A stretch of DNA of 64,000 nucleotides from a virus. This document shows positions 1,265-27,841 of the stretch, one piece after another. The stretch lies in UHGV virus genome UHGV-1370141; one strand, 5' to 3'. The notes below the pieces were generated by a model, which ran no database searches, was not told where the DNA came from, and saw nothing but the letters and a program-made list of their open reading frames with translations. Made by a program: the position numbers and the translations under genes. How positions within the stretch are numbered: the first letter of the stretch is position 1; every line of letters starts with the position of its first letter.

Positions 1265-2203
1265 ATGGAGTCACCTGCAATGGCGACCAATGCGGAACCA
1301 AAATTATCAGATCAGTTATTTGACAATCCAACAATATTAGCCGTTATTACTACATCCAAATGTAATCTGGACTGTAGTTTCTGCGGCGGAGCCTATTACA
1401 TGAATCGTGAAGATTCTTCTCGAGAGTTTCAACGTGACCGAATTATGGAGGCGTTAGAAGCTAACCCAACAATCACCGAGATTCAATGGACGGGTGGTGA
1501 GCCTTTGTTAGCCACTCGTAAAATTGAGGCGTTTGTTGACGAGTTAAAAGTAATTCGTCCAGAGCTCAAACATCAGTTATATACCAACGGTTTAAAGATG
1601 CGTAAAACGCATCTCCCGTTGTTAAAACAATTTGATAATGTGTATGTTAGCATCGACGGGTTTGAGTTGTCTGAACGCCCTTTTAAGCGTTTTATTAACG
1701 ATGGTTGCTACGAAGCTTTAGAAGTAATGCATGAGCTTGAAAATGTTCATACATGGGCCGTTTTAACTCGAGAACAGTTGGGTAACAAACGGTGGCATGA
1801 AGACATTATTGAGCTTCATAATGCGATCTATCACTACGGTTATCGTACCATGACGTTGCTGTTAGACGCGAATATGCCAAAACCGTTATCTCCCGATCAC
1901 GTTATGAACTTTATTTACGGGTATTTTAGAATTCAGGAAAATATAGAAAGACTGAATGTTTCCAACTCGAAAAGGTGTGACTATGTCGTAAGCAAAGTTT
2001 TTGATGGTGGGTGTAACGTATGCAGCAATAGTTTATGGTTAAGAGCAGATGGAACCGAATATCAGTTGCAAAATGCCCCGAGATTATTAGAATCGGGATG
2101 TAACCAATTAGCTTGTTCCATCGGGTTAGAAGCCTACGAGTATATTCGACGAGTGGTTATGGCCAACCGTAATAGTGGAGTATTAAATGAACCAAGAAAA
2201 TAA
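1265..2203 (+). CDS. radical SAM enzyme
   Basis: CNLDCSFC (CX3CX2C) motif near the N-terminus and a GGEPLL glycine-rich SAM-binding motif; its end overlaps the start of the next radical SAM gene. Confidence 0.8.
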   Translation: MESPAMATNAEPKLSDQLFDNPTILAVITTSKCNLDCSFCGGAYYMNREDSSREFQRDRIMEALEANPTITEIQWTGGEPLLATRKIEAFVDELKVIRPELKHQLYTNGLKMRKTHLPLLKQFDNVYVSIDGFELSERPFKRFINDGCYEALEVMHELENVHTWAVLTREQLGNKRWHEDIIELHNAIYHYGYRTMTLLLDANMPKPLSPDHVMNFIYGYFRIQENIERLNVSNSKRCDYVVSKVFDGGCNVCSNSLWLRADGTEYQLQNAPRLLESGCNQLACSIGLEAYEYIRRVVMANRNSGVLNEPRK

Positions 2204-3509
2204 TTACCCGAAACAGTTGACTTACCAGATTGTTACAAACTTGTCGTGTAATTTGGACTGTGAGTATTGTTACGAGCGTAAATATCCCCGCAATAACAAA
2301 GCAGCAGATATTGTAGATTTTCTTCATGCCTGTTTCGAGCGTGATAAAGATTTACCAAACGTAGAAGTCGTCATTGACATTATCGGCGGCGAGCCGTTTA
2401 TGCAGCCTAAGCTTCTAATGGCCGCTTTCGAAACAGCCGAGCAGTTGTGTGAAGAACATAAACGCCCGTTTATGTTTAGTATCTCTACTAATGGGACATT
2501 ATTAGATAGGCCGTTGAACAGGGAAATTATTGAACGTTGGAAGGACAGACTTTCTATCGGGGTGTCTATTGATGGGTTACCTGAGTCGCACGATAAGTAC
2601 CGTATTTTTACAACGAGTCGCGAAGGTTCTTACGAGGCCGCTGTACGTGGTTACAATTATCTAAAAGAAGTAGGTATCGCGGAGCTTGGGGTTAAAGCGA
2701 CATTTACTTTGGAAACGCTCCCACATTATGCGGCGGGTATGAAATCCCTAATCGATTTGGCTGGAGGTGGAACCATTTCTGGTAACGTAACCTTCGAAGA
2801 CATTATGCCACGGAGTATGGCTACGTCGATAGCGCTACAAATGATGGATGTAGTCGATTATTGGGTTGAAAAGGGTTTACACACCAACCCACGTAATACC
2901 CTATCACATATCATCCCGGAAGGGTTAGATTTCGACACTATCTGGGAACCGAACTGGCGGGATCAGCTACTTTACAACGATACTGTACGTTTAAACCCGG
3001 AACGCTTGCGTCCGTTCTGCGGGACATTAACTCACATGACTTGTTTAGGGTTTGACAGGAAGATTTTCGGTTGTAACCGTTTCATGTCGACTGTAACGTC
3101 ACGTTCTGCGGTATTTGAGTTAGTCGGTCGTGAGTTTGTTAGCTTAGACGGTGGGAAACTGCTGGAAGAGATTCAGACGCAATACACCAACTATCCTGAG
3201 ACGTGCTTAGGTTGTCCGATGAAACACGCTTGTGGTAGCTGTGCAGCAGCTTCCTACGAGAATGGGGAAGGGACGTTAGAAGACCGTAAAGCGTATCACG
3301 CTGAACGTCGTCAATGTGGTTGGACAACTGCAAAATTAATGGTCGCGGAATACTGGAAACAGAAGATGGGTACAACATCTGTGAAGGATTTCCACGATAA
3401 TAGCATGTGTTACTGCCCTCGCTGTGTACGTGAACGTGCCCAAAAAGAAAAACAATTGAGAGAAGCCAAAGATGAAGCCAATTCTGATCCACAATATTAC
3501 GAAGCGTAA
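2187..3509 (+). CDS. radical SAM enzyme with SPASM/twitch-like C-terminal Cys cluster (peptide-maturase-like)
   Basis: CNLDCEYC (CX3CX2C) and GGEPFM motifs; the C-terminal region holds extra Cys clusters (CLGCPMKHACGSC, CYCPRC) as in SPASM-domain maturases. Confidence 0.8.
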   Translation: MNQENNYPKQLTYQIVTNLSCNLDCEYCYERKYPRNNKAADIVDFLHACFERDKDLPNVEVVIDIIGGEPFMQPKLLMAAFETAEQLCEEHKRPFMFSISTNGTLLDRPLNREIIERWKDRLSIGVSIDGLPESHDKYRIFTTSREGSYEAAVRGYNYLKEVGIAELGVKATFTLETLPHYAAGMKSLIDLAGGGTISGNVTFEDIMPRSMATSIALQMMDVVDYWVEKGLHTNPRNTLSHIIPEGLDFDTIWEPNWRDQLLYNDTVRLNPERLRPFCGTLTHMTCLGFDRKIFGCNRFMSTVTSRSAVFELVGREFVSLDGGKLLEEIQTQYTNYPETCLGCPMKHACGSCAAASYENGEGTLEDRKAYHAERRQCGWTTAKLMVAEYWKQKMGTTSVKDFHDNSMCYCPRCVRERAQKEKQLREAKDEANSDPQYYEA

Positions 3510-16890: not shown

Positions 16891-17511
16891 TTATTTCATT
16901 CCGTTCTGAGAAAGTGTTGTCCCTGCAAGATGCTTAATAACGATCTTGACAGGCAAATTACTATTCTCGTACTGTACTTCGGTTTCAGACAAATCGGTGA
17001 TATCGACAACTTTAGAAGGTACTTTCGCTAAGACAACCCGAATGGTGTGGGTTATCGTACTGGCTGTGGTCTTTGTATTACTAATGTAGAAGTACGCATC
17101 AATAATACCGCCGTCTTCTGCCAGATAAACCAATTTATTTTCCAACAGACACTGGGTATAAATTGACACTCCAGATAATTGCGAAATCCCCAGTCTATTA
17201 TTAACGTCAACTGTTGTTTTGCAGATTACCGCACCACCTGTCAACGTTTTTTCTACCACCATATTTCCCGATAAGGTTTTTGCATCCATTTTTGGTACAA
17301 TCGGATGAGTGCCGTCAACAAACAACCCATCGCTGTTAGACTTAAGGATGTTATTCGCCGACGGACTCACTGTAACCTCGCCACCCCCTAATTTCTCAAT
17401 CGGGAGTTGGTATTCAGTTTGTTCCTTAGACGCTAAGACTACTACACCCGTGATGTCTTCTGAAAGTGTCTCCAGTTCATGAATGCGCACCTTTCCTACC
17501 AGTTCAGCCAT
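16891..17511 (-). CDS. putative short tail fiber/receptor-binding protein with conserved N-terminal anchor domain
   Basis: N-terminus MAELVGKVRIHELETLSEDITGVVVLASKEQTEYQLPIEKL matches the N-termini of the long tail fiber (23767) and of 26851..27312. Confidence 0.55.
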   Translation of the reverse strand: MAELVGKVRIHELETLSEDITGVVVLASKEQTEYQLPIEKLGGGEVTVSPSANNILKSNSDGLFVDGTHPIVPKMDAKTLSGNMVVEKTLTGGAVICKTTVDVNNRLGISQLSGVSIYTQCLLENKLVYLAEDGGIIDAYFYISNTKTTASTITHTIRVVLAKVPSKVVDITDLSETEVQYENSNLPVKIVIKHLAGTTLSQNGMK

Positions 17512-18026
17512 TAGTGGCCTCCGAATGTTAAGACACGGTTATCTGCGGTAACGATTAAATCGTTGTCTTTTACTACAGCGGCTTCTTCATCGTTACCGAA
17601 AACCAGAACGGAGAATTGGCCTTTATAACCTAACGAGTTGGGTGAAACCTGTAACGTTACAGCGTCTTTCCCTACGGTAAATGATTCGTCGGTAAGATCG
17701 TCGGGTTGTAAATTACAACCACAAGCCGCGTTAATTCCGTCGATTAGATCGTGTGCGGTAAAGCCATTACCGGAAACCTTTACCAGAATAGGTTGCTGGT
17801 TTAACCACCGCTCTGCGGTTAAACGGTTGTAATAAATCTGTAACGTTCTGTTGTCCGGACGTTTTATCTTTACAACAGCAGTGGTGTCACGATCCATTTC
17901 GTTACTGGTCTTTACGTCGCTGACTTCAACCTCGTTCTCTTGCAGGTCGAGCTGGAGGTCATGGTTAACCAGTGAAATAACCATGTTAAGTGAAGTTAAC
18001 GACAAATCTGGCGTGAATTGTTCCAC
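17511..18026 (-). CDS. hypothetical protein (paralog of 27278..27841), tail fiber-associated
   Basis: N-terminal ..PDLSLTSLNMVISLVNHDLQLDL.. aligns with ..PDLSLTSAELVVALINHDNGLQL.. of 27278..27841; GTG start preceded by AGGAGG. Confidence 0.5.
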   Translation of the reverse strand: MEQFTPDLSLTSLNMVISLVNHDLQLDLQENEVEVSDVKTSNEMDRDTTAVVKIKRPDNRTLQIYYNRLTAERWLNQQPILVKVSGNGFTAHDLIDGINAACGCNLQPDDLTDESFTVGKDAVTLQVSPNSLGYKGQFSVLVFGNDEEAAVVKDNDLIVTADNRVLTFGGH

Positions 18027-18124: not shown

Positions 18125-18631
18125 TTAACTGATTTTGAAATCTCTTAACGTACCAGTTGATCTCATCACGTTTTGAAAAGCAGTGCTGATGTTATTAGTC
18201 CAGTAGTAATGCTGTCCGTTAATAACCTGCTGATAGGTCAGTGCGCAAGTGTTACCGCCTAGATTTACAGTGATGTTAGAGGCCCTGCCGCCTTGTAAGT
18301 AAACCGCTAAACTAGGCCTTGCGTTGCCAACTACCGTCGTTAACTGTAATTCGATACCTACTAAAGTTCCCACCCCGCAGTTACCCGCGTTTTGAATGGT
18401 CCCCTGATTTTTCTGGTTTAACGGCCAATTTGGTCCTACTGCGCCCCATTTCTTACCTAAAGAATCTCTATATGCGGCAGTTGCAATTTTACAGCCCATA
18501 GATCTTCCCACCATTTGACTCATCATAAAAGGTCTACTCAATCCTAATTTACTACCCGCAGCGCTCATCCACTGTTCGCCCGTTTCATTCCTAGCTGAAG
18601 ATCCGACCCATCCTGACGCTACCCCCCCCAT
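18125..18631 (-). CDS. Gly-rich tail fiber-associated protein (paralog of 18648..19286)
   Basis: N-terminus MGGVASGWVGSSARNETGEQWMSAAGSKLG aligns with the 212-aa neighbour; a G8 homopolymer spans the start codon and codons 2-3. Confidence 0.5.
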   Translation of the reverse strand: MGGVASGWVGSSARNETGEQWMSAAGSKLGLSRPFMMSQMVGRSMGCKIATAAYRDSLGKKWGAVGPNWPLNQKNQGTIQNAGNCGVGTLVGIELQLTTVVGNARPSLAVYLQGGRASNITVNLGGNTCALTYQQVINGQHYYWTNNISTAFQNVMRSTGTLRDFKIS

Positions 18632-18647: not shown

Positions 18648-19286
18648 TTAAACACGTGAACCGTATATTGCACCTACTGCGTCCCATCTTGGCGCATTAC
18701 CAGTAACAGCTTTACCAGCTGCTCCGCCGTTATATTCTGTACCGTTACCATGAGTATTACATCTTCCTCCAGCAGCACCGACATTACCACCCGAACCGCC
18801 TGTATATGCACTAAGAGACCCCTCACCAACAGATCCTCTACCAGGAGCGGAAATAGTACCAGCAGCTGCACCGGAACTCATATGAGAGGAAGACCCACCA
18901 GCACCGCCTGGCGAGTTAGAACCACCGTTGCCTCCTCTGCCGTATACTGTAACCCCAGGATTGATGATGAGTGTAATATACGAATTTGGAAGATTGCTAG
19001 GGAATTCTAAACAAGGAACCCCGCTACTATAAGACACTAAATCCCCTGTAATGGTCACAACGACAGCAGTAGAGCCTAAAGAACGTAAATAGTTAATAAG
19101 AGTATCCTTATTATAGCTATGGTTAGCACCAATAGAATAATGGACCTCTTTTGATTTTCCCGCCAATTGCGACATCCAGCCTGGAACCGGCACACCAAGT
19201 GTGCGCATCGCGCCAGACATCCATTCGTTACCAGCTTCAGCTTTTGCTGAAGAACCAATCCAACCACCTACGCCGACAACTGCCAC
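18648..19286 (-). CDS. Gly-rich tail fiber-associated protein
   Basis: 212 aa with long Gly/Ser/Ala tracts (GGNGGSNSPGGAGGSS...); GTG start overlapping the tail fiber stop by 1 nt. Confidence 0.5.
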   Translation of the reverse strand: MAVVGVGGWIGSSAKAEAGNEWMSGAMRTLGVPVPGWMSQLAGKSKEVHYSIGANHSYNKDTLINYLRSLGSTAVVVTITGDLVSYSSGVPCLEFPSNLPNSYITLIINPGVTVYGRGGNGGSNSPGGAGGSSSHMSSGAAAGTISAPGRGSVGEGSLSAYTGGSGGNVGAAGGRCNTHGNGTEYNGGAAGKAVTGNAPRWDAVGAIYGSRV

Positions 19287-22200
19287 TAGGATCTCCCTTT
19301 GATTTCGTTAACCTCTTGACGCAACGCTTTCATACCCTCTACTAACAGCGCAATAACGCCATTGTAGTTTAGACGTAAACGTTTTTCGCCTGAAATGGCA
19401 TCATCATCCTCAGACACAAGTTCAGGTAACGCTTCTAATGCGTCTTGAGCAATTAGACCTACAGAAGTTTGCCAACCGTCATCCGGATGCTGAATTTCGT
19501 ACAAATAACCAGTTAGTAACTCTAACCGATCCAAAGCCTTATCCAGCTTCACCAGATTACGTTTGTTACGACGGTCAGAACGAATCTGTACGTCGTTAAA
19601 CGAACCGTTACCGCTGCCAGTAACGTTATGACCAAAGGTTACTTGGCCATTAGCGTTATTAAAATACAACGGACGTAGTCCGTTCCAGGAACCCGTTGCA
19701 GCTTGTCCGGCGTCGGTTACTAAGAAATAGGTATTGGCACCATCGTTACGTAACATAAAGCCGTAGTTGCCGTAAGCGATTCGAAAATCAGGGTACTTAG
19801 TGACCAATTTACCGTTAACGGTTAAATCGCCACCTATAGTACCGCCCCCTGACGGTAACGCACCGATGTCACCAGCGTTAGGTTTGTTGTGTGTGCTGTA
19901 AATCAGATAGACGGTACCGTCTGTTAGTCCTGCGGGTTTATTAGCCGTATAGCTTGGCGATGTGTGAATCGTTACGTTGGCATTACTAGTGTAGTCCCAC
20001 TGAATATTAACACCGGTGGCGTAATTACCTATTTCAACATAAATATCGTAAGTGTCACCAGATGTATTCACCCATGCAAAATTAGTGAAGCCGACTGAGG
20101 TCAGTCGCCATAACGCACCAGTAATACCTTTTGGATTCCCATTTCCTGCACGCAGAACCAGCTCAGAGATACCTGCTTGATGCGGGGAACCAACGTTAAA
20201 CCCTGCACCACCAATCAGGCTTATGTAAACCACGGAACTGGCTTGTGGCATCGTTACAGTTGCTAGTTTGAACCATCCGGCACCACCATTAAAAGACACA
20301 GTTGTTGTGTTCGCGGCACCAACATTTCGTAAGAATTTTCTCTTATCTGGAATATCGGCACCGTTCTGTTTCTTCTGCAATGACCCACCGGCCAATTCTA
20401 CAGTTTGGCCAAGATTTAAACTTTCAGCCGTTATTTCGATGTTTTTAGTGCCGTCAAACGCAATACCGTTGATGGTTCTTGCAGTTTGCAACTTTGTTGC
20501 AGTGGCCGCGTTTCCGGTGGTCGACTGATTACCCGTTTGGTTTACTCCAGGAAGATTAACGTCTTTCGTCCCATCGAAAACCACACCACCGATCCTACGT
20601 CCTGTTTGTAACTTGGTAGCGGTTGCTGCATTACCTGTCGTATTCTGGTTGCCTTGCTGGTTAACCCCCGGTAAATTGATATCCCCAGTACCGTCAAAGG
20701 TAACGCCGCCGATTCTGCGAGCGGTTTTCAGTTTCGTCGCGGTAGCGGCGTTGCCGGTAGTATCTTGATTACCTGTGGTATTTACGCCAGGAATACTGTC
20801 ACGGGCAGTATAAACTTGTGCCCAATCTGACCACGGCGCATCTGCCGTATCACGTCGACTACGAATATAAACTGGCGCGTGCGCACCACTCGTGCCCGAC
20901 CAACCAATTAACAACTCGCCTTCGCCTAGCGCAGCAGAACCACCCAAATGCAGTAAGTTACCATAAGCGGTCGGATAACCGTTATTGTAAACTTCGTACA
21001 TCTGAATACCAGGCGTACCTTTGTTTGAACCAGTCAGTGCAGTAACACGTCCACGTCCTACCAACGTGTTGATATTGATGTCTCTAGACCCATCAAATTT
21101 CACACCGTTGATGTTTCGAGCCGTTTGTAATTTGGTTGCGGTTCCCGCGTTCCCAGAGGTGTTTTGATTACCTTGTTGGTTAACACCTGGGAGGTTAACG
21201 TCGCCGCTACCGTCGAAGGCGACCCCACCAATTCTACGTGCCGTCTTTAATTTAGTGGCGGTTGAAGCATTGCCTGTTAACTCACCTGCTAACCCTTTTG
21301 CAAAGGTCTGTTTTTCTGCCCAGGTGTGCGCTGCGTTCAATACAGGCATCTGGCGTGGCGTAATTGTTCGACTACCTTTCTCACCAGCGATACGAACAGC
21401 AAAGAAGCGATAGTTGGCAGTAGACACCGTACTACGCCAAACCAACATGCTCCGACCGGTGCCGGTGTCATCAGACGGCCCTACAAGGATGTTAACTAAG
21501 TTACCGTCAATCACACCCCAATCCATTCCCGCAGGAATATTTTTCATGGTGTTCAACGGTGACGTTAACATCTGACCGGGAACGAAGTCGTAGGTTTGCC
21601 AGTCTAACGGGTCAACCTTAGCAGCTACACCACCAATGCCTAAAACTAACGGAAGTGAATACGAGGTGAAAACCTCTCGCCACCCACTCCAAATGTTACC
21701 CGTACGGATACGTTGGAATTTACGACCTTTAGTTTCTCTACCCGTGCCGTATGTGGTATAATTCTGTTCGACCCCTGTACCGTCTAAGCGTAAGGTAACT
21801 TCACAAACGCCTACCACGGTTTCGCTAGAAGAACCGATAAGTGGACCGTTAGTTGCCTCACCAGTGACACTGAAACGACCCGGTTTAACGAGATCGTTAA
21901 AATTGGCTTTAAAGAAAGCACCGTCAGTCTGATAACCAACCTGAATCCAATCTTCCCATTGTGGGTTTGATGAATCCCACGTTGCAGTCAAACCACGGAC
22001 ATACATTGTGCCACGACGCGTAGTGTATCGCTGCAACCGTCCGAAAAGACCACCTTCCATTACTTCTAGTACGCCTTGCGCGTTACCGCCTTCTTCAGGG
22101 TAATGCCGGTCGAACACCGCTAACGAACTGGACGAGTTCCGCCAGTTACCCATATGCTCAGCGCCACCCAGAGAGTTCAAGTCTATAGAGGTAGACAGTG

Positions 22201-23767
22201 GGCGAACACCAGTGGTTACCATTCTCCACGGTGACCAGGGTCCATTAGTTCCGTTCCACACACCTGACAACATACGGTTGTACACGTTACCATTACGACA
22301 GGTAAAACGTTGCGCGCCACTGTAGTTGCCCGCTTTATACACTTCCAGATAACCGACTGCACCGTCTTCTGGGAAGTGTTTTGCCATCGACGCATTGGTT
22401 GATGTCGACTTAGACCACGTTCCTGTGTAATTAGCATCTGGAGCAAATGTGTTAATATCAGCATCTACAGGCATTTCGCCACGGAAACGCAGGTAGGTAT
22501 CAGGAGATAGGCCGATGTTGCGAGCAAAAGTTTCTTTATCTGGGATATCAGCGCCGTTAGAGTTTTTCTGTAACGCACCATTCGCTTTATCGACGGTAGT
22601 TTTCAAACCCAGGAAGTTAATGATATCCGCCGTCGACCCTTTCGCTAACAAATCGCGCGCAGTCGAGGTGAAATCCGCTAATCCCACCCGATTACTACCG
22701 GTAAAGTAAGGGAGTTTGTTTGCAGCGGTGGTGACTGCGGCAATCGCTGTCAGTAACGGACTTAACGGCTGTTTACCCGCGAGTTGGTTCGTTATCGTTG
22801 TCGCAAAGTTAGGATCGTTTCCTAACGCGGCTGCAATTTCTGATAACGTATCTAACGTCTCGGGTGAAGAGTCCACTAATTCAGCAATCGCTTGCCGTAC
22901 CCATGCCGTCGTTGAGACTGTCGTGTCGTTAGAATCCGCAGCAGGAGTCGGAGCTTTTACTACGCCAGTAAACGTCGGCGAGTGACGGTTTGCTTTTAAC
23001 TGCAAATCATCATTTAACTGCTTAACCGTTGACGGTGTAGCCGCTTCCGTAACCGAGTCACTGGTTAAGGTATTATTAAGTTTAACGATACCTTTACTGG
23101 ACGTTGTTGCATCAACGTTACCTTTTGCAGCGATTTCCTCTGCACGCTTAGCGGCTGCCTCAGAACGCGTTGCCGCATTCTCTGCGGTTTCTTTGTCTGA
23201 GGTAACTTGCGTTGCTGTAGCCTCTACAGAGGCTTTTGACGACTCTACTGACGCGACAGCTTCGTTAACTGCCGTAAGCGACTGTTCTACTTGACCGGCT
23301 TGTGTGGCAACAGTTTCTGCTTTCTTCGTAACGGTAGTCACCGCTTGTGTGACGTTGGCCTCGCTTGCCGCTACCGCTTGTGCTTTCTCATTAACGGACA
23401 CAACCTGGGTATCTACCGCCGTTTTCGCGGCTAACACTTCAGTGTGTTTTGTACCGACCTCAGTTGCTTTTTCGGTTACAGTTTGCGCTTGTTGAGCAAC
23501 CGTAGCCGCAACGGTGTCAGTTTGTTGTTTTGCTGTTTCTGCTAAATTCTTTGCTTGTGTAGCCTGAGTTGCAGCTTCTTGTGATTGTGTTGCTGCTGCT
23601 TGTGCATCAGACACCGCATTACGCACGGTGTCAATATCTGCAACGATCTCACGGACTGGTAACTTATAATCTTTCTCATCTTTGGAGAAAAGTAAAACAC
23701 CTTCACCGATATCCCCGGTGTATGGACGTAAGTCGTGTAAACGAATTTTCTTTACCGCTTTAGCCAT
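19286..23767 (-). CDS. long tail fiber protein with C-terminal intramolecular chaperone (peptidase S74-like) domain
   Basis: 1493 aa; Ala/Thr/Gln-rich N-terminal region after a conserved anchor; five tandem copies of a ~33-aa GN..TATKL.TAR.I.GV.FDG fibre repeat; C-terminus ..DRRNKRNLVKLDKALDRLELLTGYLYE..GLIAQD..NYNGVIALLVEG.. resembles the self-cleaving chaperone of tail fibers. Confidence 0.85.
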   Translation of the reverse strand: MAKAVKKIRLHDLRPYTGDIGEGVLLFSKDEKDYKLPVREIVADIDTVRNAVSDAQAAATQSQEAATQATQAKNLAETAKQQTDTVAATVAQQAQTVTEKATEVGTKHTEVLAAKTAVDTQVVSVNEKAQAVAASEANVTQAVTTVTKKAETVATQAGQVEQSLTAVNEAVASVESSKASVEATATQVTSDKETAENAATRSEAAAKRAEEIAAKGNVDATTSSKGIVKLNNTLTSDSVTEAATPSTVKQLNDDLQLKANRHSPTFTGVVKAPTPAADSNDTTVSTTAWVRQAIAELVDSSPETLDTLSEIAAALGNDPNFATTITNQLAGKQPLSPLLTAIAAVTTAANKLPYFTGSNRVGLADFTSTARDLLAKGSTADIINFLGLKTTVDKANGALQKNSNGADIPDKETFARNIGLSPDTYLRFRGEMPVDADINTFAPDANYTGTWSKSTSTNASMAKHFPEDGAVGYLEVYKAGNYSGAQRFTCRNGNVYNRMLSGVWNGTNGPWSPWRMVTTGVRPLSTSIDLNSLGGAEHMGNWRNSSSSLAVFDRHYPEEGGNAQGVLEVMEGGLFGRLQRYTTRRGTMYVRGLTATWDSSNPQWEDWIQVGYQTDGAFFKANFNDLVKPGRFSVTGEATNGPLIGSSSETVVGVCEVTLRLDGTGVEQNYTTYGTGRETKGRKFQRIRTGNIWSGWREVFTSYSLPLVLGIGGVAAKVDPLDWQTYDFVPGQMLTSPLNTMKNIPAGMDWGVIDGNLVNILVGPSDDTGTGRSMLVWRSTVSTANYRFFAVRIAGEKGSRTITPRQMPVLNAAHTWAEKQTFAKGLAGELTGNASTATKLKTARRIGGVAFDGSGDVNLPGVNQQGNQNTSGNAGTATKLQTARNINGVKFDGSRDININTLVGRGRVTALTGSNKGTPGIQMYEVYNNGYPTAYGNLLHLGGSAALGEGELLIGWSGTSGAHAPVYIRSRRDTADAPWSDWAQVYTARDSIPGVNTTGNQDTTGNAATATKLKTARRIGGVTFDGTGDINLPGVNQQGNQNTTGNAATATKLQTGRRIGGVVFDGTKDVNLPGVNQTGNQSTTGNAATATKLQTARTINGIAFDGTKNIEITAESLNLGQTVELAGGSLQKKQNGADIPDKRKFLRNVGAANTTTVSFNGGAGWFKLATVTMPQASSVVYISLIGGAGFNVGSPHQAGISELVLRAGNGNPKGITGALWRLTSVGFTNFAWVNTSGDTYDIYVEIGNYATGVNIQWDYTSNANVTIHTSPSYTANKPAGLTDGTVYLIYSTHNKPNAGDIGALPSGGGTIGGDLTVNGKLVTKYPDFRIAYGNYGFMLRNDGANTYFLVTDAGQAATGSWNGLRPLYFNNANGQVTFGHNVTGSGNGSFNDVQIRSDRRNKRNLVKLDKALDRLELLTGYLYEIQHPDDGWQTSVGLIAQDALEALPELVSEDDDAISGEKRLRLNYNGVIALLVEGMKALRQEVNEIKGRS
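20450..21300 (-). repeat. tandem in-frame tail-fibre repeats (about 99 nt unit; 3 + 2 copies), approximate bounds
   Basis: Repeated nucleotide blocks encoding GNQ.T.GNA.TATKLQTAR.I.GV.FDG..D.NLPGVNQ within the tail fiber gene. Confidence 0.55.
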
Positions 23768-23800
23768 GATATTTAATTCTCTATCGGGAGCTAAAAGATC

Positions 23801-23824
23801 TGGGGGAGGTAAGCACCTCCCCCA
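23801..23824 (-). other. intergenic G5/C5 hairpin
   Basis: tgggggaggt-aagc-acctccccca between the 1001-aa gene stop and the tail fiber start; no clear T-run. Confidence 0.35.
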
Positions 23825-23844
23825 ACATTTTTATAAGCGGGTTA

Positions 23845-26800
23845 TTATTGCTCCGGTTTTAATGGAACATCTTCTACCGTTAACGTAACGTCTAAGGCCG
23901 CTTGACTGTGGTCAGTAATCGCTAAGTCACGATAAATATTAGCATTGGCTCCGTAGGTTTTATAAGTAACGTAGAGACCTAACGCACGTAGCACTTCCCC
24001 AGTGTAGAACCCATAAGCCATTCCGTTATCAGAAGACTCTCGAGCGGCTGGAGACCACGCTCCATTAATCGGCTTATTCGGAATTGAGGTAATCGTAAAC
24101 CCTTCACCTAACTCCTTAATTGCCGCATTAACCACTTTATCGTAGTTCGGATTCGTTGCACCGGCGAGTAATGCCCAGCAACACCCTGCTAACCACAACC
24201 CACACATATGTGCGGTGAAGTCGTTTTCCACCCAAACAGCTTTATCCGGTGCTGTAGGGAACTCGTTAGGAGTGTGGCCATTAAACCGATCCACAAACCC
24301 ACCTAGCCAATTCACCCAGTTGTCAATATAGCTTGTTAACGCCTCGGGAACGTCTTTACCTCGCAGTTTCAGTTCGTACCAACAGCGACATGCGGCATGA
24401 AACGCACGAGGCTGATACCCTGCCCAAGGATGGTCATCACCCCAATGGAACGTCGTCCAGGTATCCGCTTCTCCGTAGCTGTAGTTGTCCCAACGGTTCC
24501 AGATATAAGCTGCACAACCAGGTCCTAATTCCCCAATTTGCTGTTGGTAAGCCAACTGCGAATCGTACAGGAATTGAATCTGGTTATCTAACCACAGCTT
24601 ATACCGGTCGTCTTTGTGGATACTGTACATAAACGGATACTGATAACCCGGATAAGGCATCCCGTGCCAAGCACCTAACTGTTCCGAACCTTCTAAGTAG
24701 CTGTTCGTGAACGGTATCGTACCCGGACAGTACGCTAACGAATCCAATCGGTAATCTACAATCGTACAATCACCCACTTTTGCATCAAACTCTGCACCAC
24801 CGCGTAAGGCAATACGGAAGGTTAAAATATAACCATCGTCTTTATTAAAGACCGGTGGAACATCGTTAACACAATAGTAAGCAAAGTGCGCATGGTCAAC
24901 CGTAGAGTCAGGAAGAATCGTGACCTGATCCACCTTATCGAAATTCGGTGCTGAAGGTTTAGGGTCAGCGTCTGTGTGGTCTGGCTGATAACCGGAAAGT
25001 GTGGCTTCATCTGGATTCAACGTTACCTGACGCCATTCGTTGTTTGTGTTGGGTAACATCCACCACCAACGCCAGTTATCACTGTCGACTAAACGCAAGT
25101 TAAAATCTGCGTCTGCACGGTAAACAATAGAAACGGGTTTTACCTTCTCTTCAGCGGTTAACCAAAACCCGATAATAAACCCGGCACTGTCATCAGGAAA
25201 TTCAGCTTCTACCACGGTACCCGCGCGACCATCGTAAATGCTATCCTCAAAACGTTCTTCCCATGTACAACCACCATAGTCCGAACACGCACGGGCTTCA
25301 GCTATCAGGTAGTCTCCCCCTTCTGGGGTGGTAATACGGGAAAGTTGGCCTAAGTCAATATCGTACTGTTTAACGGTATTTACCGTAGACCGAGGTAAGG
25401 TTAAACCGTACCAGTTTACTTCCTCGGTATCAGCTTTCGCAGGGTTAATGTTCACCATCGCTTTACAGTAGACAGGATCGCCATTCTTACAAACTCCACC
25501 GTACGTGACACGAAGTTTGGAGTCTTTGTTAATCCTGAATCGAACCGCTTGCTGCTCCATAAAGTGTTGTACCGCTTCAGGCGCATGGATGGTAATGTCT
25601 CCATTCTCATCACGGCCGTAGGTAACACTTACGGTGTCCGGGTAATTGAAGTCGTACGAAATGCCATCCGTAAACGGTGTTTCCGCAGCGGTAGAACGAC
25701 GGAAGAATTTATCTACCGCATCAATATACGTGTACTCGTGTGCTGTGTAGAAAGCACAGTCTAACGCTTGTTTGTATTTCTCTTCACCTGTTATACGCCA
25801 CAGCAAATAACAGGCGTCGATAAACCACAGTTCAGCATCAGCGGCGTTACCGTATTGGTTTTTCGACCCTAAGAACGGTGTGTGGACCGGACGGTTGTGC
25901 CACGGCTCATTACGTTTAAATTCGTAACCGCCGTGTTCGACGGGAAGTTTTACCGCGTAGTTAATTAAATAGACACCGTTTAACTGTGTGTCTTTTAACT
26001 GTACGGTACCTTTATCAGCGTCTGCTAATCCCGTCTCAATAATTTCACTATCCTGGATTTTGTTACCCGTCCAGGCAATTATCCAGTCAACGTCGTATTT
26101 AGGAGCTTTTGTTGCAGACCCGCCCCAAAGCGGGGTGTAACCTGTAGCATTATTTAGCAGTGTTGGCCAATCGACCCAAGCGATGCTTTCGTAAGGCTTA
26201 TCAGGATTAGTAATAACGTGAGTTAAAACGTCTTCCCAATTAATCGACCCTTCTTTGTCTTCCTTGATAATCTGTACATCTGCGTTAATCGCGGCCCAGG
26301 CAGGGTGGCCACGATGTGCAAACGTACAGATATCCAAATACTCTCCCCAGAAAGGTGCACCGTGCGGTATCTTACATTGGCCATTTGTAAACCTTACAGG
26401 AACACATTTATACCCGCCGTTGGTAGGTTCCGTAGGGTGAATAGGATAGTGTGCTAATACCGGTTCTTTCCCGTTTACTAACCAGTTACAAATCCGACGC
26501 TGGGGTGTTGTCGGAATAGGCTGTCCGGCGTAGAAGTACGTGTTGTACGCATCCCAGGCGTGTTTCGCAGCATCTAACCATCTTTCGTCTTTTGTTGCGA
26601 TATACATGTGGCAATAACCGATAATGTGTAACGACTGACCCTCGGTCGTTGCGTCACCATTCGGTTGGTATTCCGCCATGGTATCAGCGATGAAATGACG
26701 GTTATTCGACAGAACACCTTCTTCGTTTTGAATATAGTGTTCGTTGTGCGCGTCGTGAGTCGTTCCCGTATTCCGGGTAACGAAGGATTGGTGTCCGTAA

Positions 26801-26850
26801 GCTAACGATAACGCGTAGCTAATCGCGTGACGCTGAAAATGTTTTCTCAT
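23845..26850 (-). CDS. putative tailspike/depolymerase-like receptor-binding protein (catalytic body lacking its own anchor)
   Basis: 1001 aa, Trp/Tyr-rich, located between anchor-domain genes and the tail fiber; its ATG directly follows, in frame, the TAA of the upstream anchor gene. Confidence 0.5.
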   Translation of the reverse strand: MRKHFQRHAISYALSLAYGHQSFVTRNTGTTHDAHNEHYIQNEEGVLSNNRHFIADTMAEYQPNGDATTEGQSLHIIGYCHMYIATKDERWLDAAKHAWDAYNTYFYAGQPIPTTPQRRICNWLVNGKEPVLAHYPIHPTEPTNGGYKCVPVRFTNGQCKIPHGAPFWGEYLDICTFAHRGHPAWAAINADVQIIKEDKEGSINWEDVLTHVITNPDKPYESIAWVDWPTLLNNATGYTPLWGGSATKAPKYDVDWIIAWTGNKIQDSEIIETGLADADKGTVQLKDTQLNGVYLINYAVKLPVEHGGYEFKRNEPWHNRPVHTPFLGSKNQYGNAADAELWFIDACYLLWRITGEEKYKQALDCAFYTAHEYTYIDAVDKFFRRSTAAETPFTDGISYDFNYPDTVSVTYGRDENGDITIHAPEAVQHFMEQQAVRFRINKDSKLRVTYGGVCKNGDPVYCKAMVNINPAKADTEEVNWYGLTLPRSTVNTVKQYDIDLGQLSRITTPEGGDYLIAEARACSDYGGCTWEERFEDSIYDGRAGTVVEAEFPDDSAGFIIGFWLTAEEKVKPVSIVYRADADFNLRLVDSDNWRWWWMLPNTNNEWRQVTLNPDEATLSGYQPDHTDADPKPSAPNFDKVDQVTILPDSTVDHAHFAYYCVNDVPPVFNKDDGYILTFRIALRGGAEFDAKVGDCTIVDYRLDSLAYCPGTIPFTNSYLEGSEQLGAWHGMPYPGYQYPFMYSIHKDDRYKLWLDNQIQFLYDSQLAYQQQIGELGPGCAAYIWNRWDNYSYGEADTWTTFHWGDDHPWAGYQPRAFHAACRCWYELKLRGKDVPEALTSYIDNWVNWLGGFVDRFNGHTPNEFPTAPDKAVWVENDFTAHMCGLWLAGCCWALLAGATNPNYDKVVNAAIKELGEGFTITSIPNKPINGAWSPAARESSDNGMAYGFYTGEVLRALGLYVTYKTYGANANIYRDLAITDHSQAALDVTLTVEDVPLKPEQ

Positions 26851-27312
26851 TTAGTAACCCGCTGCAAGAAGAGAACCTTTCCAGGTGGCACCCCCATCAA
26901 GGGTATAAAGCGACAGAGTGTCTTCCGCATTTGCCGCGTAGGATAAAACCGGTTGTGCACCGTGAGGCCATTTAACGTTTTCAGGCCAGGTTACTTTATT
27001 CGCCCCTGTTCCTTGCTTAATCGTTAGCATTACTTCGAAACGGGTATTTTCTGCAACGTTGGTAAGGGCTGCGAACGTCACTGTAGTGTTAGGATCGTTT
27101 AACACCAGAATAATGTCAGTGCTGGTATTGAAATCCAACGTGGCGGCATTATTCGAACCGTTAACCGTGGTGACTGTCGCAACCGGGGCTAACTTATCAA
27201 CATCAATTTTATATTCTTTATTGTCTTTGCTATACAGCAGTACCCCGCCTTGGGGTGTGCCTGCGTAGCTTTCGAGCTCATGGAGTCTCGTCTTCTTCAG
27301 TGCTGTCGCCAT
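26851..27312 (-). CDS. tail fiber N-terminal anchor domain protein
   Basis: MATALKKTRLHELESYAGTPQGGVLLYSKDNKEYKIDVDKL matches the N-termini of the tail fiber and of 16891..17511; start placed at the ATG at 27312 rather than the ORF-track start at 27363. Confidence 0.55.
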   Translation of the reverse strand: MATALKKTRLHELESYAGTPQGGVLLYSKDNKEYKIDVDKLAPVATVTTVNGSNNAATLDFNTSTDIILVLNDPNTTVTFAALTNVAENTRFEVMLTIKQGTGANKVTWPENVKWPHGAQPVLSYAANAEDTLSLYTLDGGATWKGSLLAAGY

Positions 27313-27841
27313 CTGGAACCTCAAATGTAAGAACGGCATCGTCACCAATACAGAAGATTGCATCTTCTTCGTTTGCTAATGCCCGTTCGGTTGTATCAAA
27401 CAACGTCACCATAAACGCGTTCATCCACGCAGGAGAATCGTCGGCAACGTTAACGGAAATGGGATCGTTACCTAAAGTGATATCTGAAGCACGTAAATCC
27501 TCGGGTTGTAAGTTCGTTCCGCAGAATTCATTTACAACACTAAGAATGTCACGAACGTTGTCTTCAGTACCGTCTAACGAAATCAGAATGGGTTCATACG
27601 TTAATACTTCATCTGCGTCGAGTCTGTCGTAGTAAACCACAACAGACGCGCCATCCGGTTTTCTGATTTTACTGATTTCGGTAATGGTGTTACGACGCGA
27701 AGTTGTTGGGGATGGGTTTGTTACAGTTCCGCTAATACGGATTTCGTTTAGTGTAAGCTGTAACCCGTTATCATGATTGATTAAAGCGACCACTAGCTCT
27801 GCTGAGGTCAGACTCAAATCAGGTACGTATGGTGTGGCCAC
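27278..27841 (-). CDS. hypothetical protein (paralog of 17511..18026), tail fiber-associated
   Basis: 187 aa; paralogy to 17511..18026; acidic C-terminus. Confidence 0.5.
   Translation of the reverse strand: MATPYVPDLSLTSAELVVALINHDNGLQLTLNEIRISGTVTNPSPTTSRRNTITEISKIRKPDGASVVVYYDRLDADEVLTYEPILISLDGTEDNVRDILSVVNEFCGTNLQPEDLRASDITLGNDPISVNVADDSPAWMNAFMVTLFDTTERALANEEDAIFCIGDDAVLTFEVPDGDSTEEDETP

What the first reader, a model, noticed from the sequence alone, without database searches (positions are those of the whole stretch)
19286..23767. Long tail fibre with five tandem fibre repeats and a self-cleaving chaperone-type C-terminus
The 1493-aa protein carries 3 + 2 tandem copies of a ~33-aa repeat (GN..TATKLQTAR.I.GV.FDG...NLPGVNQ) encoded by near-identical DNA blocks, and ends with a domain resembling the intramolecular chaperone/S74 autoprotease of phage fibres. 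The repeat DNA is a likely substrate for recombination-driven length variation.
Basis: partly seen in the sequence, partly recalled or inferred. Interest (0 to 1): 0.45.

Follow-up and report, generated by a model that had tools for sequence, protein, structure and literature searches.

The report
Jumbo-phage tail fibre capped by adhesins
This is the long tail fibre gene of a giant enterobacterial phage: an ordinary patchwork fibre that most likely cuts off its own C-terminal folding domain and is then capped by one of two separately encoded receptor-binding proteins lying just downstream.

Summary
The ORF is real: 19286-23767 on the minus strand, 1493 aa. It carries five copies of a 40-aa repeat (2 + 3 in protein order). 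Its C-terminus is a Peptidase_S74 intramolecular chaperone (Pfam 40.7 bits; fold match to solved chaperone domains; cleavage motif DVQIR^SDRRNK aligned to the mapped site of phage S16 gp37).

The repeat DNA is not near-identical: units are 48-68% identical, with exact runs of 10 nt or less. Phage_fiber_2 does not match the five repeats; it matches one other segment, aa 221-259.

Both are gp38-type adhesins. This is therefore a T2/S16-type fibre, in which the chaperone leaves and a separate adhesin binds the receptor.

The fibre is a mosaic of a jumbo-phage anchor with P1 S-like, T-even gp37-like and SSU5-like modules. The genome is a Seoulvirus-like jumbo phage.

Among 120 relatives the second repeat block has 2, 3 or 4 units, sometimes within otherwise identical flanks. 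Length variation is therefore real.

Verdict: a new member of a known kind. The paired adhesins are the only mildly novel point.

The parts
19286..23767 (-). Long tail fibre CDS, 1493 aa plus stop
   Evidence: ORF list and translation. Many PHROG tail-fibre families match at E down to 1e-243. 120 full-length relatives share 82-100% identity.
23618..23767 (-). N-terminal anchor, aa 1-50 (presumed baseplate or adaptor attachment)
   Evidence: 52% identical to the N-terminus of the SPN3US gp143 'tail fiber protein' and its relatives in jumbo phages. The same motif heads two other proteins of this locus: ORF 26851-27363 (52%) and ORF 16891-17511 (39%). The attachment role is inferred.
23123..23617 (-). 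Ala/Thr/Val/Gln-rich segment, aa 51-215, probably coiled coil
   Evidence: Composition: A 44, T 27, V 23 among the 175 residues counted. Only weak sub-threshold matches to SMC/Rad50 coiled-coil models. The structure is inferred.
22991..23107 (-). Single Phage_fiber_2 unit, aa 221-259, inside a P1 S-like shaft (aa 112-389)
   Evidence: PF03406, 37.4 bits against a cut-off of 22. 41% identical to P1 S aa 196-457.
21290..22519 (-). T-even gp37-like region with repeated roughly 100-aa globular domains, aa 417-826
   Evidence: 54% identical over 412 aa to gp37 aa 105-515 of Tequatrovirus WilhelmHis, E 1e-144. Internal domain duplication, E 5e-14.
21041..21280 (-). Repeat block 1: two 40-aa units (aa 830-909)
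   Evidence: Always two units in the 120 relatives.
20762..21040 (-). Globular domain between the repeat blocks, aa 910-1002
   Evidence: Weak similarity to the upstream globular domains, E 4e-4. Together with block 1 it is 74% identical to SSU5 fibre aa 603-765.
20402..20761 (-). Repeat block 2: three 40-aa units (aa 1003-1122). The middle unit is the one whose number varies among relatives.
   Evidence: Block 2 has 2 units in 6 relatives, 3 in 32 and 4 in 80; two proteins carry an extra block.
19868..20401 (-). Distal shaft module, aa 1123-1300, shared with SSU5-like phage-plasmids
   Evidence: Fibre aa 1072-1317 are 72% identical to the fibre of E. coli plasmid pAMPD1, aa 791-1004. Relatives carry alternative modules at this position, of 287, 255 or 230 aa.
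19664..19864 (-). Gp34_trimer-type trimerisation domain, aa 1302-1368
   Evidence: PF21446, 61.5 bits against a cut-off of 27. Aligns to Mu S (5yvq) and T4 gp34 (4uxe, 5nxf).
19580..19663 (-). Fibre tip, aa 1369-1396, ending in DVQIR; predicted docking surface for gp38
   Evidence: Aligns to the S16 gp37 tip (6f45_A). PMC7917993 describes the five residues before the cut as the gp38 docking strand. Docking here is inferred.
19289..19579 (-). Peptidase_S74 intramolecular chaperone, aa 1397-1493. Predicted cut R1396^S1397; Ser1397 codon at 19577-19579; Lys1402.
   Evidence: PF13884, 40.7 bits against a cut-off of 22. Alignment to S16 gp37. The motif is present in 120 of 120 relatives. AF2 pLDDT is 80-92 over this part, and Foldseek hits 7dc3 and 3gw6. 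Cleavage itself is not shown.
18648..19286 (-). gp38-type adhesin 1, 212 aa. GTG start overlaps the fibre stop codon by one base.
   Evidence: Pfam GP38 154 bits and Gp38_N 53 bits. Aligns to S16 gp38 (6f45_D), E 2e-30. It is 48 aa shorter than in relatives.
18125..18631 (-). gp38-type adhesin 2, 168 aa. It has the same N-terminal docking domain but an unrelated beta-rich C-terminal domain.

Best explanation
The ORF encodes the long tail fibre of a roughly 220-226 kb Seoulvirus-like (SPN3US-related, phiKZ-type) jumbo phage of enterobacteria. The fibre is a homotrimeric shaft assembled from borrowed modules.

From N- to C-terminus these are:
- a 50-aa lineage-specific anchor that fixes it to the tail;
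- an Ala-rich coiled coil;
- a P1 S-like shaft with one Phage_fiber_2 unit;
- a T-even gp37-like run of globular domains;
- two blocks (2 + 3) of a 40-aa shaft repeat separated by a globular domain;
- an SSU5-like module;
- a gp34-type trimerisation domain;
- a short tip ending in DVQIR.

The last 97 residues are a Peptidase_S74 intramolecular chaperone. It helps the three chains fold in register and then cuts itself off between Arg1396 and Ser1397, using Ser1397 and Lys1402. The fibre does not bind the receptor itself. The newly exposed tip is capped by a separately encoded gp38-type adhesin, as in phages T2, T6 and S16.

Two such adhesin genes follow directly. They share the docking domain but have unrelated receptor-binding domains, so individual fibres probably carry one or the other.

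The 40-aa repeats are spacer units of the shaft. Their number sets fibre length and differs among relatives.

Shown here: the domain memberships, the motifs, the gene order and the polymorphism. Inferred: trimerisation, cleavage, capping and alternative use of the two adhesins.
For: Fibre identity: PHROG tail-fibre families and Pfam domains.

Chaperone:
- PF13884 scores above its cut-off.
- The last 100-140 aa align to the S16 gp37 construct 6f45_A, with DVQIR^SDRRNK against DLNVS^SDRRIKK.
- PMC7917993 states that the S16 chaperone is autocleaved at that site, which exposes the gp38 docking surface. Preprint 10.64898/2026.05.12.724579 says the same for T2, T6 and S16.
- The motif is present in 120 of 120 relatives.
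- The AF2 model of the chaperone part (pLDDT 80-92) hits MyRF ICA 7dc3 (prob 1.0) and the endosialidase chaperone 3gw6 (prob 0.93-0.97).

Adhesins:
- The ORF immediately downstream matches GP38 plus Gp38_N and aligns along its length to S16 gp38.
- The next ORF matches Gp38_N.
- Both keep the N-terminal Trp residues.
- The pair is present in every relative examined: L001, L003, L004 and L005.
- A complete 221,873-bp relative has exactly one chaperone-bearing fibre and exactly two Gp38_N ORFs.

Genome and mosaic:
- Genome type: 761-aa major capsid protein, 78-80% identical to Erwinia phiEaH2/Asesino and to SPN3US-like phages.
- Anchor shared with SPN3US gp143.
- Mosaic map.

Repeat-number polymorphism.
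Against: - Nothing here is experimental. Trimerisation, cleavage and adhesin binding are inferred from homology.
- Apart from the last five residues, the tip upstream of the cut is only weakly similar to that of S16, and its AF2 model has low confidence (pLDDT below 50).
- Adhesin 1 of this window lacks 48 aa of the glycine-rich domain that relatives have, and it starts with GTG. It may be impaired.
- Adhesin 2 keeps only two of the three N-terminal Trp positions, and its C-terminal domain has no solved relative.
- I found no report of two gp38-type adhesins serving one fibre. That part has no precedent to lean on.
Confidence: 0.75

Rival explanations
1. One reading: a T5 pb1-type fibre. The fibre's own distal domain binds the receptor once the chaperone is removed. 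The five repeats are near-identical DNA that recombines to change fibre length.
For: The S74 chaperone is real. Repeat number does differ among relatives. Alternative distal modules occur downstream of the last repeat, which shows that the distal shaft evolves quickly.
Against: Two gp38-type adhesin genes follow the fibre gene directly, and the tip plus chaperone align to S16 gp37, which needs gp38 for binding. T5 pb1 structures did not appear among the sequence matches to solved structures. The repeat DNA is 48-68% identical, with exact runs of 10 nt at most.
Confidence: 0.1
2. Only one adhesin works in this genome. Adhesin 1 is a decaying copy, with a 48-aa deletion in its receptor-binding domain and a GTG start, and adhesin 2 alone caps the fibre.
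For: A clean 48-aa in-frame deletion relative to L001, L003 and L005, between two GAGG motifs; GTG in place of ATG. Adhesin 2 has a strong AAAGGAGG ribosome-binding site.
Against: The deletion is in frame, and the remaining glycine-rich region still aligns to the C-terminal part of S16 gp38. The docking and central domains are intact. The same 212-aa gene is seen on an independent contig. Glycine-rich motifs are modular.
Confidence: 0.2
3. The two downstream proteins are assembly chaperones, like T4 gp38 or the Tfa proteins of Mu and P1, and are not part of the virion.
For: Some database records name homologues of adhesin 2 'distal long tail fiber assembly catalyst'.
Against: Adhesin 1 matches the T2-type adhesin family PF05268 at 154 bits and aligns to the S16 adhesin crystallised on the fibre tip. 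The fibre already carries its own intramolecular chaperone. The C-terminal domain of adhesin 2 varies between relatives (about 60% identity, two allele types), as expected for a receptor-binding part.
Confidence: 0.05

Closest known systems
Long tail fibre tip of Salmonella phage S16 and of T2/T6-type T-even phages (gp37 with C-terminal chaperone, plus gp38 adhesin; PDB 6F45)
   Same: A C-terminal S74 chaperone with the S-D-x-R-x-K cut site after a short beta-strand tip. A gp38 adhesin gene immediately downstream, with a Trp-bearing N-terminal docking domain and a glycine-rich receptor-binding domain.
   Different: Here the whole fibre is one 1493-aa chain with a jumbo-phage anchor, in place of the four proteins gp34-37. 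Two adhesin genes follow rather than one. Adhesin 1 is 48 aa shorter than its relatives. The host genome is phiKZ-type, not Straboviridae.
Tail fibre and 'tail fiber adhesin' of Salmonella phage SSU5 and SSU5-like phage-plasmids (e.g. E. coli pAMPD1)
   Same: A single-chain fibre with the same 40-aa repeat, a shared distal module (72-74% identity) and the same type of chaperone (47-48%), followed by a gp38-type adhesin. Short stretches of 84-89% nucleotide identity occur within window 18661-20383.
   Different: A different N-terminal half. One adhesin gene, not two. SSU5-like elements are siphovirus phage-plasmids of about 100-115 kb.
Phage P1 and Mu tail fibre protein S
   Same: Shaft segments 41-50% identical, including single copies of the 40-aa repeat and the gp34-type trimerisation domain.
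   Different: P1 and Mu switch fibre tips by DNA inversion and use separate Tfa chaperones (U, U'). They have no S74 chaperone and no gp38.
Phage T5 L-shaped tail fibre pb1 and endosialidase tailspikes (classical S74 chaperones)
   Same: A C-terminal self-cleaving Ser-Lys intramolecular chaperone; fold match to 3gw6.
   Different: In those proteins the receptor-binding or enzymatic domain is part of the same chain. Here a separate adhesin is expected.
C-terminal spike of the phage L decoration protein Dec (PDB 6E3C)
   Same: The only solved-structure sequence that the repeat profile finds, at E 0.003: NAxTAxKLxTARxI...FDGSxN. It was modelled as a narrow three-stranded beta-helix (PMC6449081).
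   Different: A single copy in a capsid protein. The structure of that part is a low-resolution model, so the fold of the fibre repeats remains inferred.

Membership tests
Peptidase_S74 / intramolecular chaperone auto-processing domain | Match to the family HMM above the curated threshold | tested here: met
   PF13884, 40.7 bits against a cut-off of 22, aa 1397-1451, E 3e-10.
Peptidase_S74 / intramolecular chaperone auto-processing domain | Catalytic Ser at the cut site with Lys five residues downstream | tested here: met
   S1397-D-R-R-N-K1402 aligns to the S16 gp37 motif SDRRIK, whose cleavage site is given in PMC7917993. Conserved in 120 of 120 relatives.
Peptidase_S74 / intramolecular chaperone auto-processing domain | Fold of the chaperone domain | tested here: met
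   AF2 pLDDT is 80-92 over the chaperone part. Foldseek top hits are MyRF ICA 7dc3 (E 4e-4, prob 1.0, TM 0.38/0.51) and the endosialidase chaperone 3gw6 (prob 0.93-0.97). TM values are modest because the upstream half of the model has low confidence.
Peptidase_S74 / intramolecular chaperone auto-processing domain | Actual autoproteolytic release after trimerisation | not testable with these tools
   Needs protein expression or virion mass spectrometry.
T2/S16-type fibre tip with gp38 adhesin | gp38 adhesin gene (PF05268 plus PF21721) next to the fibre gene | tested here: met
   ORF 18648-19286: GP38 154 bits, Gp38_N 53 bits. Aligns to 6f45_D at E 2e-30. Its start overlaps the fibre stop codon.
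T2/S16-type fibre tip with gp38 adhesin | Conserved Trp residues in the adhesin's N-terminal docking domain | tested here: met
   Adhesin 1 has W9, W22 and W37. Adhesin 2 has W8 and W21, with Met at the third position. Aligned to the S16 gp38 N-terminus.
T2/S16-type fibre tip with gp38 adhesin | Full set of glycine-rich motifs and hypervariable loops in the adhesin | tested here: inconclusive
   The glycine-rich C-terminal region is present and aligns to S16 gp38, but 48 aa found in relatives are missing from this window's copy.
T2/S16-type fibre tip with gp38 adhesin | Physical capping of the processed fibre tip by the adhesin | not testable with these tools
   No multimer prediction or experiment was available. 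Indirect support: one chaperone-bearing fibre and two Gp38_N ORFs in a complete relative genome.
Phage_fiber_2 repeat (PF03406) | The five 40-aa repeats match the family HMM | tested here: not met
   No PF03406 hit on the repeat blocks even at E <= 10. The only PF03406 match is aa 221-259.
Gp34_trimer (PF21446) | HMM match above threshold and alignment to solved members | tested here: met
   61.5 bits against a cut-off of 27, aa 1302-1368. Aligns to T4 gp34 and Mu S structures.
T5 pb1-type fibre (intrinsic receptor-binding tip) | Sequence similarity of the pre-chaperone tip to pb1 | tested here: not met
   No pb1 chain appeared among the sequence matches to solved structures at E <= 1 to 10.

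The most novel reading that the evidence does not exclude
One fibre, two interchangeable caps. The two adjacent gp38-type adhesins share a docking domain but have unrelated receptor-binding domains. They would compete for the same self-processed fibre tip, so a single virion carries a mixture of fibres with two receptor specificities. That would be a way of widening host range distinct from invertible tips (P1, Mu) and from multiple separate fibres. The pair is conserved across a large population of persistent Seoulvirus-like jumbo phages.
Probability: 0.35. Interest if true: 0.55.

Novelty: new member of a known kind. Interest (0 to 1): 0.33.

Why it matters
The result identifies the probable host-recognition apparatus of a widespread but uncultured group of jumbo phages found inside Escherichia, Shigella, Salmonella and Enterobacter isolates. 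In this group receptor specificity should be sought in two small downstream genes, not in the 1493-aa fibre. That matters for host-range prediction from genomes and for engineering. If both adhesins cap the same fibre, it would be a simple modular route to dual specificity. The repeat-number polymorphism gives a natural series for testing how fibre length affects adsorption.

Tried and rejected
- Near-identical DNA repeats. Tandem Repeats Finder found none, and the repeat finder gave only 62-71% identity. Rejected.
- Pfam on the isolated repeat units, the inter-block domain and the distal module. No family matched.
- Sequence searches of the PDB with the repeat region. No significant match with the region itself (four chance-level PPIase matches, E about 0.5). 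A profile of nine units found only the Dec C-terminus, at E 0.003.
- Megablast against 50,697 phage records. No close relative of the gene or of the neighbouring 24 kb, so the comparative work used metagenome and isolate assemblies instead.
- Literature searches for two gp38 adhesins on one fibre. Nothing relevant.
- Sigma-70 promoter scan. Fewer sites than in shuffles, and not informative for a phage with its own RNA polymerases.
- NCBIfam. Only sub-threshold coiled-coil matches.
- Breakpoints between relatives. The nucleotide identity profile is patchy all along the gene, not only at the repeats. 'Repeats as the only recombination sites' was therefore not adopted. What does hold is that relatives diverge right after the last unit.
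Full report
**Observation**

The coordinates 19286-23767 delimit one ORF on the minus strand: ATG start, 1493 codons, then a stop. The + strand of this stretch is full of stops.

A motif search finds five copies of T(A/G)TKL(K/Q)T(A/G)R. In register they define 40-aa (120-nt) units:
- aa 830-869 and 870-909;
- aa 1003-1042, 1043-1082 and 1083-1122.

Fifteen of 40 columns are invariant in an alignment of nine units from this window and two relatives.

The claim of near-identical DNA fails:
- Pairwise nucleotide identity between units is 48-68%.
- The longest exact string shared by any two units is 6-10 nt.
- Tandem Repeats Finder reports nothing in the gene, and the repeat finder gives 62-71%.

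Units 1 and 3 are 88% identical in protein. They differ at 26 synonymous codons and only 5 non-synonymous ones; units 3 and 4 differ at 28 and 7. These are old copies held constant at the protein level, not recent duplications.

**Domains**

Pfam gives three matches above threshold:
- Phage_fiber_2 at aa 221-259 only;
- Gp34_trimer at aa 1302-1368;
- Peptidase_S74 at aa 1397-1451.

Scanning the repeat blocks alone at E <= 10 gave no Phage_fiber_2 hit and no other credible family. The five repeats therefore belong to no curated family.

A profile of nine units finds one solved-structure sequence, the C-terminal spike of the phage L decoration protein (E 0.003). That part was modelled as a narrow three-stranded beta-helix (PMC6449081). 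It is the only structural lead for the repeats, and it is weak.

The same unit occurs:
- once in T-even gp37 (aa 74-104);
- twice, dispersed, in P1 S;
- twice in tandem in the SSU5 fibre.

**The chaperone**

The last 100-140 residues align to the gp37 construct of Salmonella phage S16 (PDB 6F45 chain A), with DVQIR-SDRRNKRN opposite DLNVS-SDRRIKKD. PMC7917993 states three things:
- the last 113 residues of S16 gp37 are an intramolecular chaperone, autocleaved between the two serines of DLNVS^SDRRIKK;
- related phages have DVYIR^SDGRLK;
- the five residues before the cut form the surface on which gp38 docks.

By alignment, the cut here is R1396^S1397, with Ser1397 and Lys1402 as the dyad and a 97-aa chaperone. 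The motif is present in all 120 close relatives.

An AlphaFold2 model of aa 1300-1493 is confident only over the chaperone part (pLDDT 80-92). Its best Foldseek hits are the MyRF ICA domain (7dc3, prob 1.0) and the endosialidase intramolecular chaperone (3gw6, prob 0.93-0.97). On every feature testable here, membership of S74 is met. Cleavage itself is not shown.

The ORF directly downstream (18648-19286, 212 aa) has a GTG start that overlaps the fibre stop codon by one base.
- It matches the Pfam families GP38 (154 bits) and Gp38_N.
- It aligns to S16 gp38, the adhesin crystallised on the fibre tip, at E 2e-30.

The next ORF (18125-18631, 168 aa) has an AAAGGAGG ribosome-binding site.
- It matches Gp38_N.
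- It shares only its first ~40 residues with the first adhesin: 53% identity, including two Trp.
- Its homologues are annotated as the tail fibre adhesin of Stx2 phage P13374 (56%) and as gene 38 of the T4-like Edwardsiella phage PEi20 (43-45%).

Preprint 10.64898/2026.05.12.724579 summarises the known rule. In T2, T6 and S16, gp37 carries the chaperone, is cleaved, lacks its own receptor-binding domain, and receives specificity from gp38. This locus fits that rule.

**Are both adhesins partners of this fibre?**

The pair is present, in the same order, in every relative whose DNA I fetched: L001, L003, L004 and L005. I assembled a complete circular relative of 221,873 bp (NZ_CP173450.1) from five fetches and screened it with tblastn. 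It contains one chaperone-bearing fibre and exactly two Gp38_N ORFs, adjacent to it.

In that genome the chaperone is a different allele, 39% identical with motif DVYIR^SDARLK, yet the docking domains of the adhesins are 88-90% identical. This fits docking on the short conserved tip strand rather than on the chaperone.

Two caveats apply. Adhesin 1 in this window has a clean 48-aa in-frame deletion between two GAGG motifs, relative to the 260-aa form in the relatives examined. And I found no paper describing two gp38-type adhesins on one fibre.

**Genome context**

The window encodes:
- a 761-aa major head protein;
- a protein matching a PHROG family described as 'polymerase';
- internal head proteins.

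The capsid protein is 78-80% identical to those of Erwinia phages phiEaH2 and Asesino and of SPN3US-like phages. Megablast finds no close relative among 50,697 phage records.

The fibre has 120 listed relatives at 82-100% identity. Many sit on contigs of 220-226 kb from Shigella, Salmonella and E. coli assemblies. Two RefSeq 'plasmids' of about 222 kb belong to the same group. This matches the 'Seoul-like' persistent jumbo phages described in preprint 10.1101/2024.12.31.630880.

The first 50 residues of the fibre are 52% identical to the N-terminus of SPN3US gp143. They also resemble the N-termini of two other proteins of this locus. They are probably the lineage-specific anchor.

The rest of the fibre is borrowed:
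- aa 112-389 resemble P1 S (41%);
- aa 417-826 resemble T-even gp37 (54%);
- aa 826-987 resemble the SSU5 fibre (74%);
- aa 1072-1317 resemble the fibre of an SSU5-like plasmid (72%);
- aa 1338-1492 resemble the SSU5 (48%) and T-even (37%) C-termini.

**Length variation**

An HMM of the five units was run on the 120 relatives. Block 1 always has two units. Block 2 has two units in 6 proteins, three in 32 and four in 80; two proteins carry an extra block. The indels are exactly 120 nt.

The first and last units of block 2 are constant, and the internal units come and go. They fall into three sequence types, found in the combinations none, A, B, C, A+C and B+C.

Some pairs of proteins have 99-100% identical flanks (340 aa upstream, 240 aa downstream) but differ by one unit. 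The change is therefore recent, and it has occurred in several backgrounds.

In a four-unit relative the two internal units are 86% identical in DNA, with a 14-nt exact run. That is closer than any pair in this window.

Directly after the last unit, relatives carry different sequences and distal modules of 287, 255 or 230 aa. The last repeat is thus also a module junction.

The stated cause, near-identical DNA in this gene, is not. Exchange between diverged alleles in the phage population is the more likely source, but I did not establish the mechanism.

**Verdict**

This is a well-supported but ordinary mosaic tail fibre with an S74 chaperone, of the T2/S16 type in which a separate gp38 adhesin binds the receptor. 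It has been transplanted onto a jumbo-phage anchor.

The mildly novel points are the conserved pair of adhesins with one docking domain and the well-documented repeat-number polymorphism.

Confidence in the main reading is 0.75. Probability that both adhesins alternate on the same fibre is about 0.35.

Noticed in passing
window 18648-19286 (minus strand): Adhesin 1 lacks 48 aa of the glycine-rich domain that three relatives have (212 vs 260 aa). The deletion is clean and in frame, between two GAGG motifs. The start codon is GTG here and ATG in the relatives whose 5' end was compared (L001, L003). The same 212-aa gene occurs on an independent contig (L004).
   Followed up: partly
window 26851-27363, 16891-17511 and 23618-23767 (all minus strand): Three proteins of the locus share an N-terminal motif of about 45 aa, (K)IRLHEL..Y.G...GVLL.SKD.KEYKLPV. 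Two DUF7941 paralogues (27278-27841 and 17511-18026, 36% identical) each precede one of them. This looks like a cassette system of adaptor plus fibre. The third anchor-bearing protein is absent from the relative NZ_CP173450.1.
   Followed up: partly
window 23800-23825: An 11-bp G+C-rich hairpin followed by a T run on both strands, between the 1001-aa tail protein gene and the fibre gene. It could be a terminator separating transcription units.
   Followed up: no
L005, L011-L015 (NZ_CP173450.1) and NZ_CP134650.1: Relatives of this phage are deposited as circular ~222-kb 'plasmids' of E. coli and Enterobacter ludwigii, and many Logan and ENA isolate assemblies carry contigs of 220-226 kb. This fits the 'persistent virulent jumbo phages' reported in preprint 10.1101/2024.12.31.630880.
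   Followed up: partly
window 22469-22633 and 20276-20440 (fibre aa ~380-434 and ~1111-1165): A second repeated motif, L.K..NGADIPDK..F.RN.G, occurs twice in the fibre. It also aligns to Mu tail fibre protein S (5yvq). Each copy lies just upstream of a globular region.
   Followed up: no
[not shown]
   Followed up: partly
window 18661-20383: Short stretches of 84-89% nucleotide identity to SSU5-like phage-plasmids of E. coli (105-115 kb) and to ~48-kb plasmids such as that of ATCC 25922, within the distal fibre and adhesin 1. This suggests fairly recent exchange of fibre-tip modules between a jumbo phage and phage-plasmids.
   Followed up: partly
window 23845-26850 (minus strand): The 1001-aa 'tail protein' (phrog_2871) upstream of the fibre is about 72% identical in DNA to genes of Proteus phage 7 (annotated glycosyl hydrolase) and Erwinia phage pEa_SNUABM_29. 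It is absent from relative L003, which instead carries a 709-aa protein elsewhere in the locus. The receptor-binding gene set of this phage group is variable.
   Followed up: no
window 1265-3509 (+ strand): ORF 2187-3509 matches a PHROG family of radical SAM domain proteins. In the relative NZ_CP173450.1 the two syntenic ORFs are both annotated 'radical SAM protein'. They sit next to the structural region; their function here is unknown.
   Followed up: no
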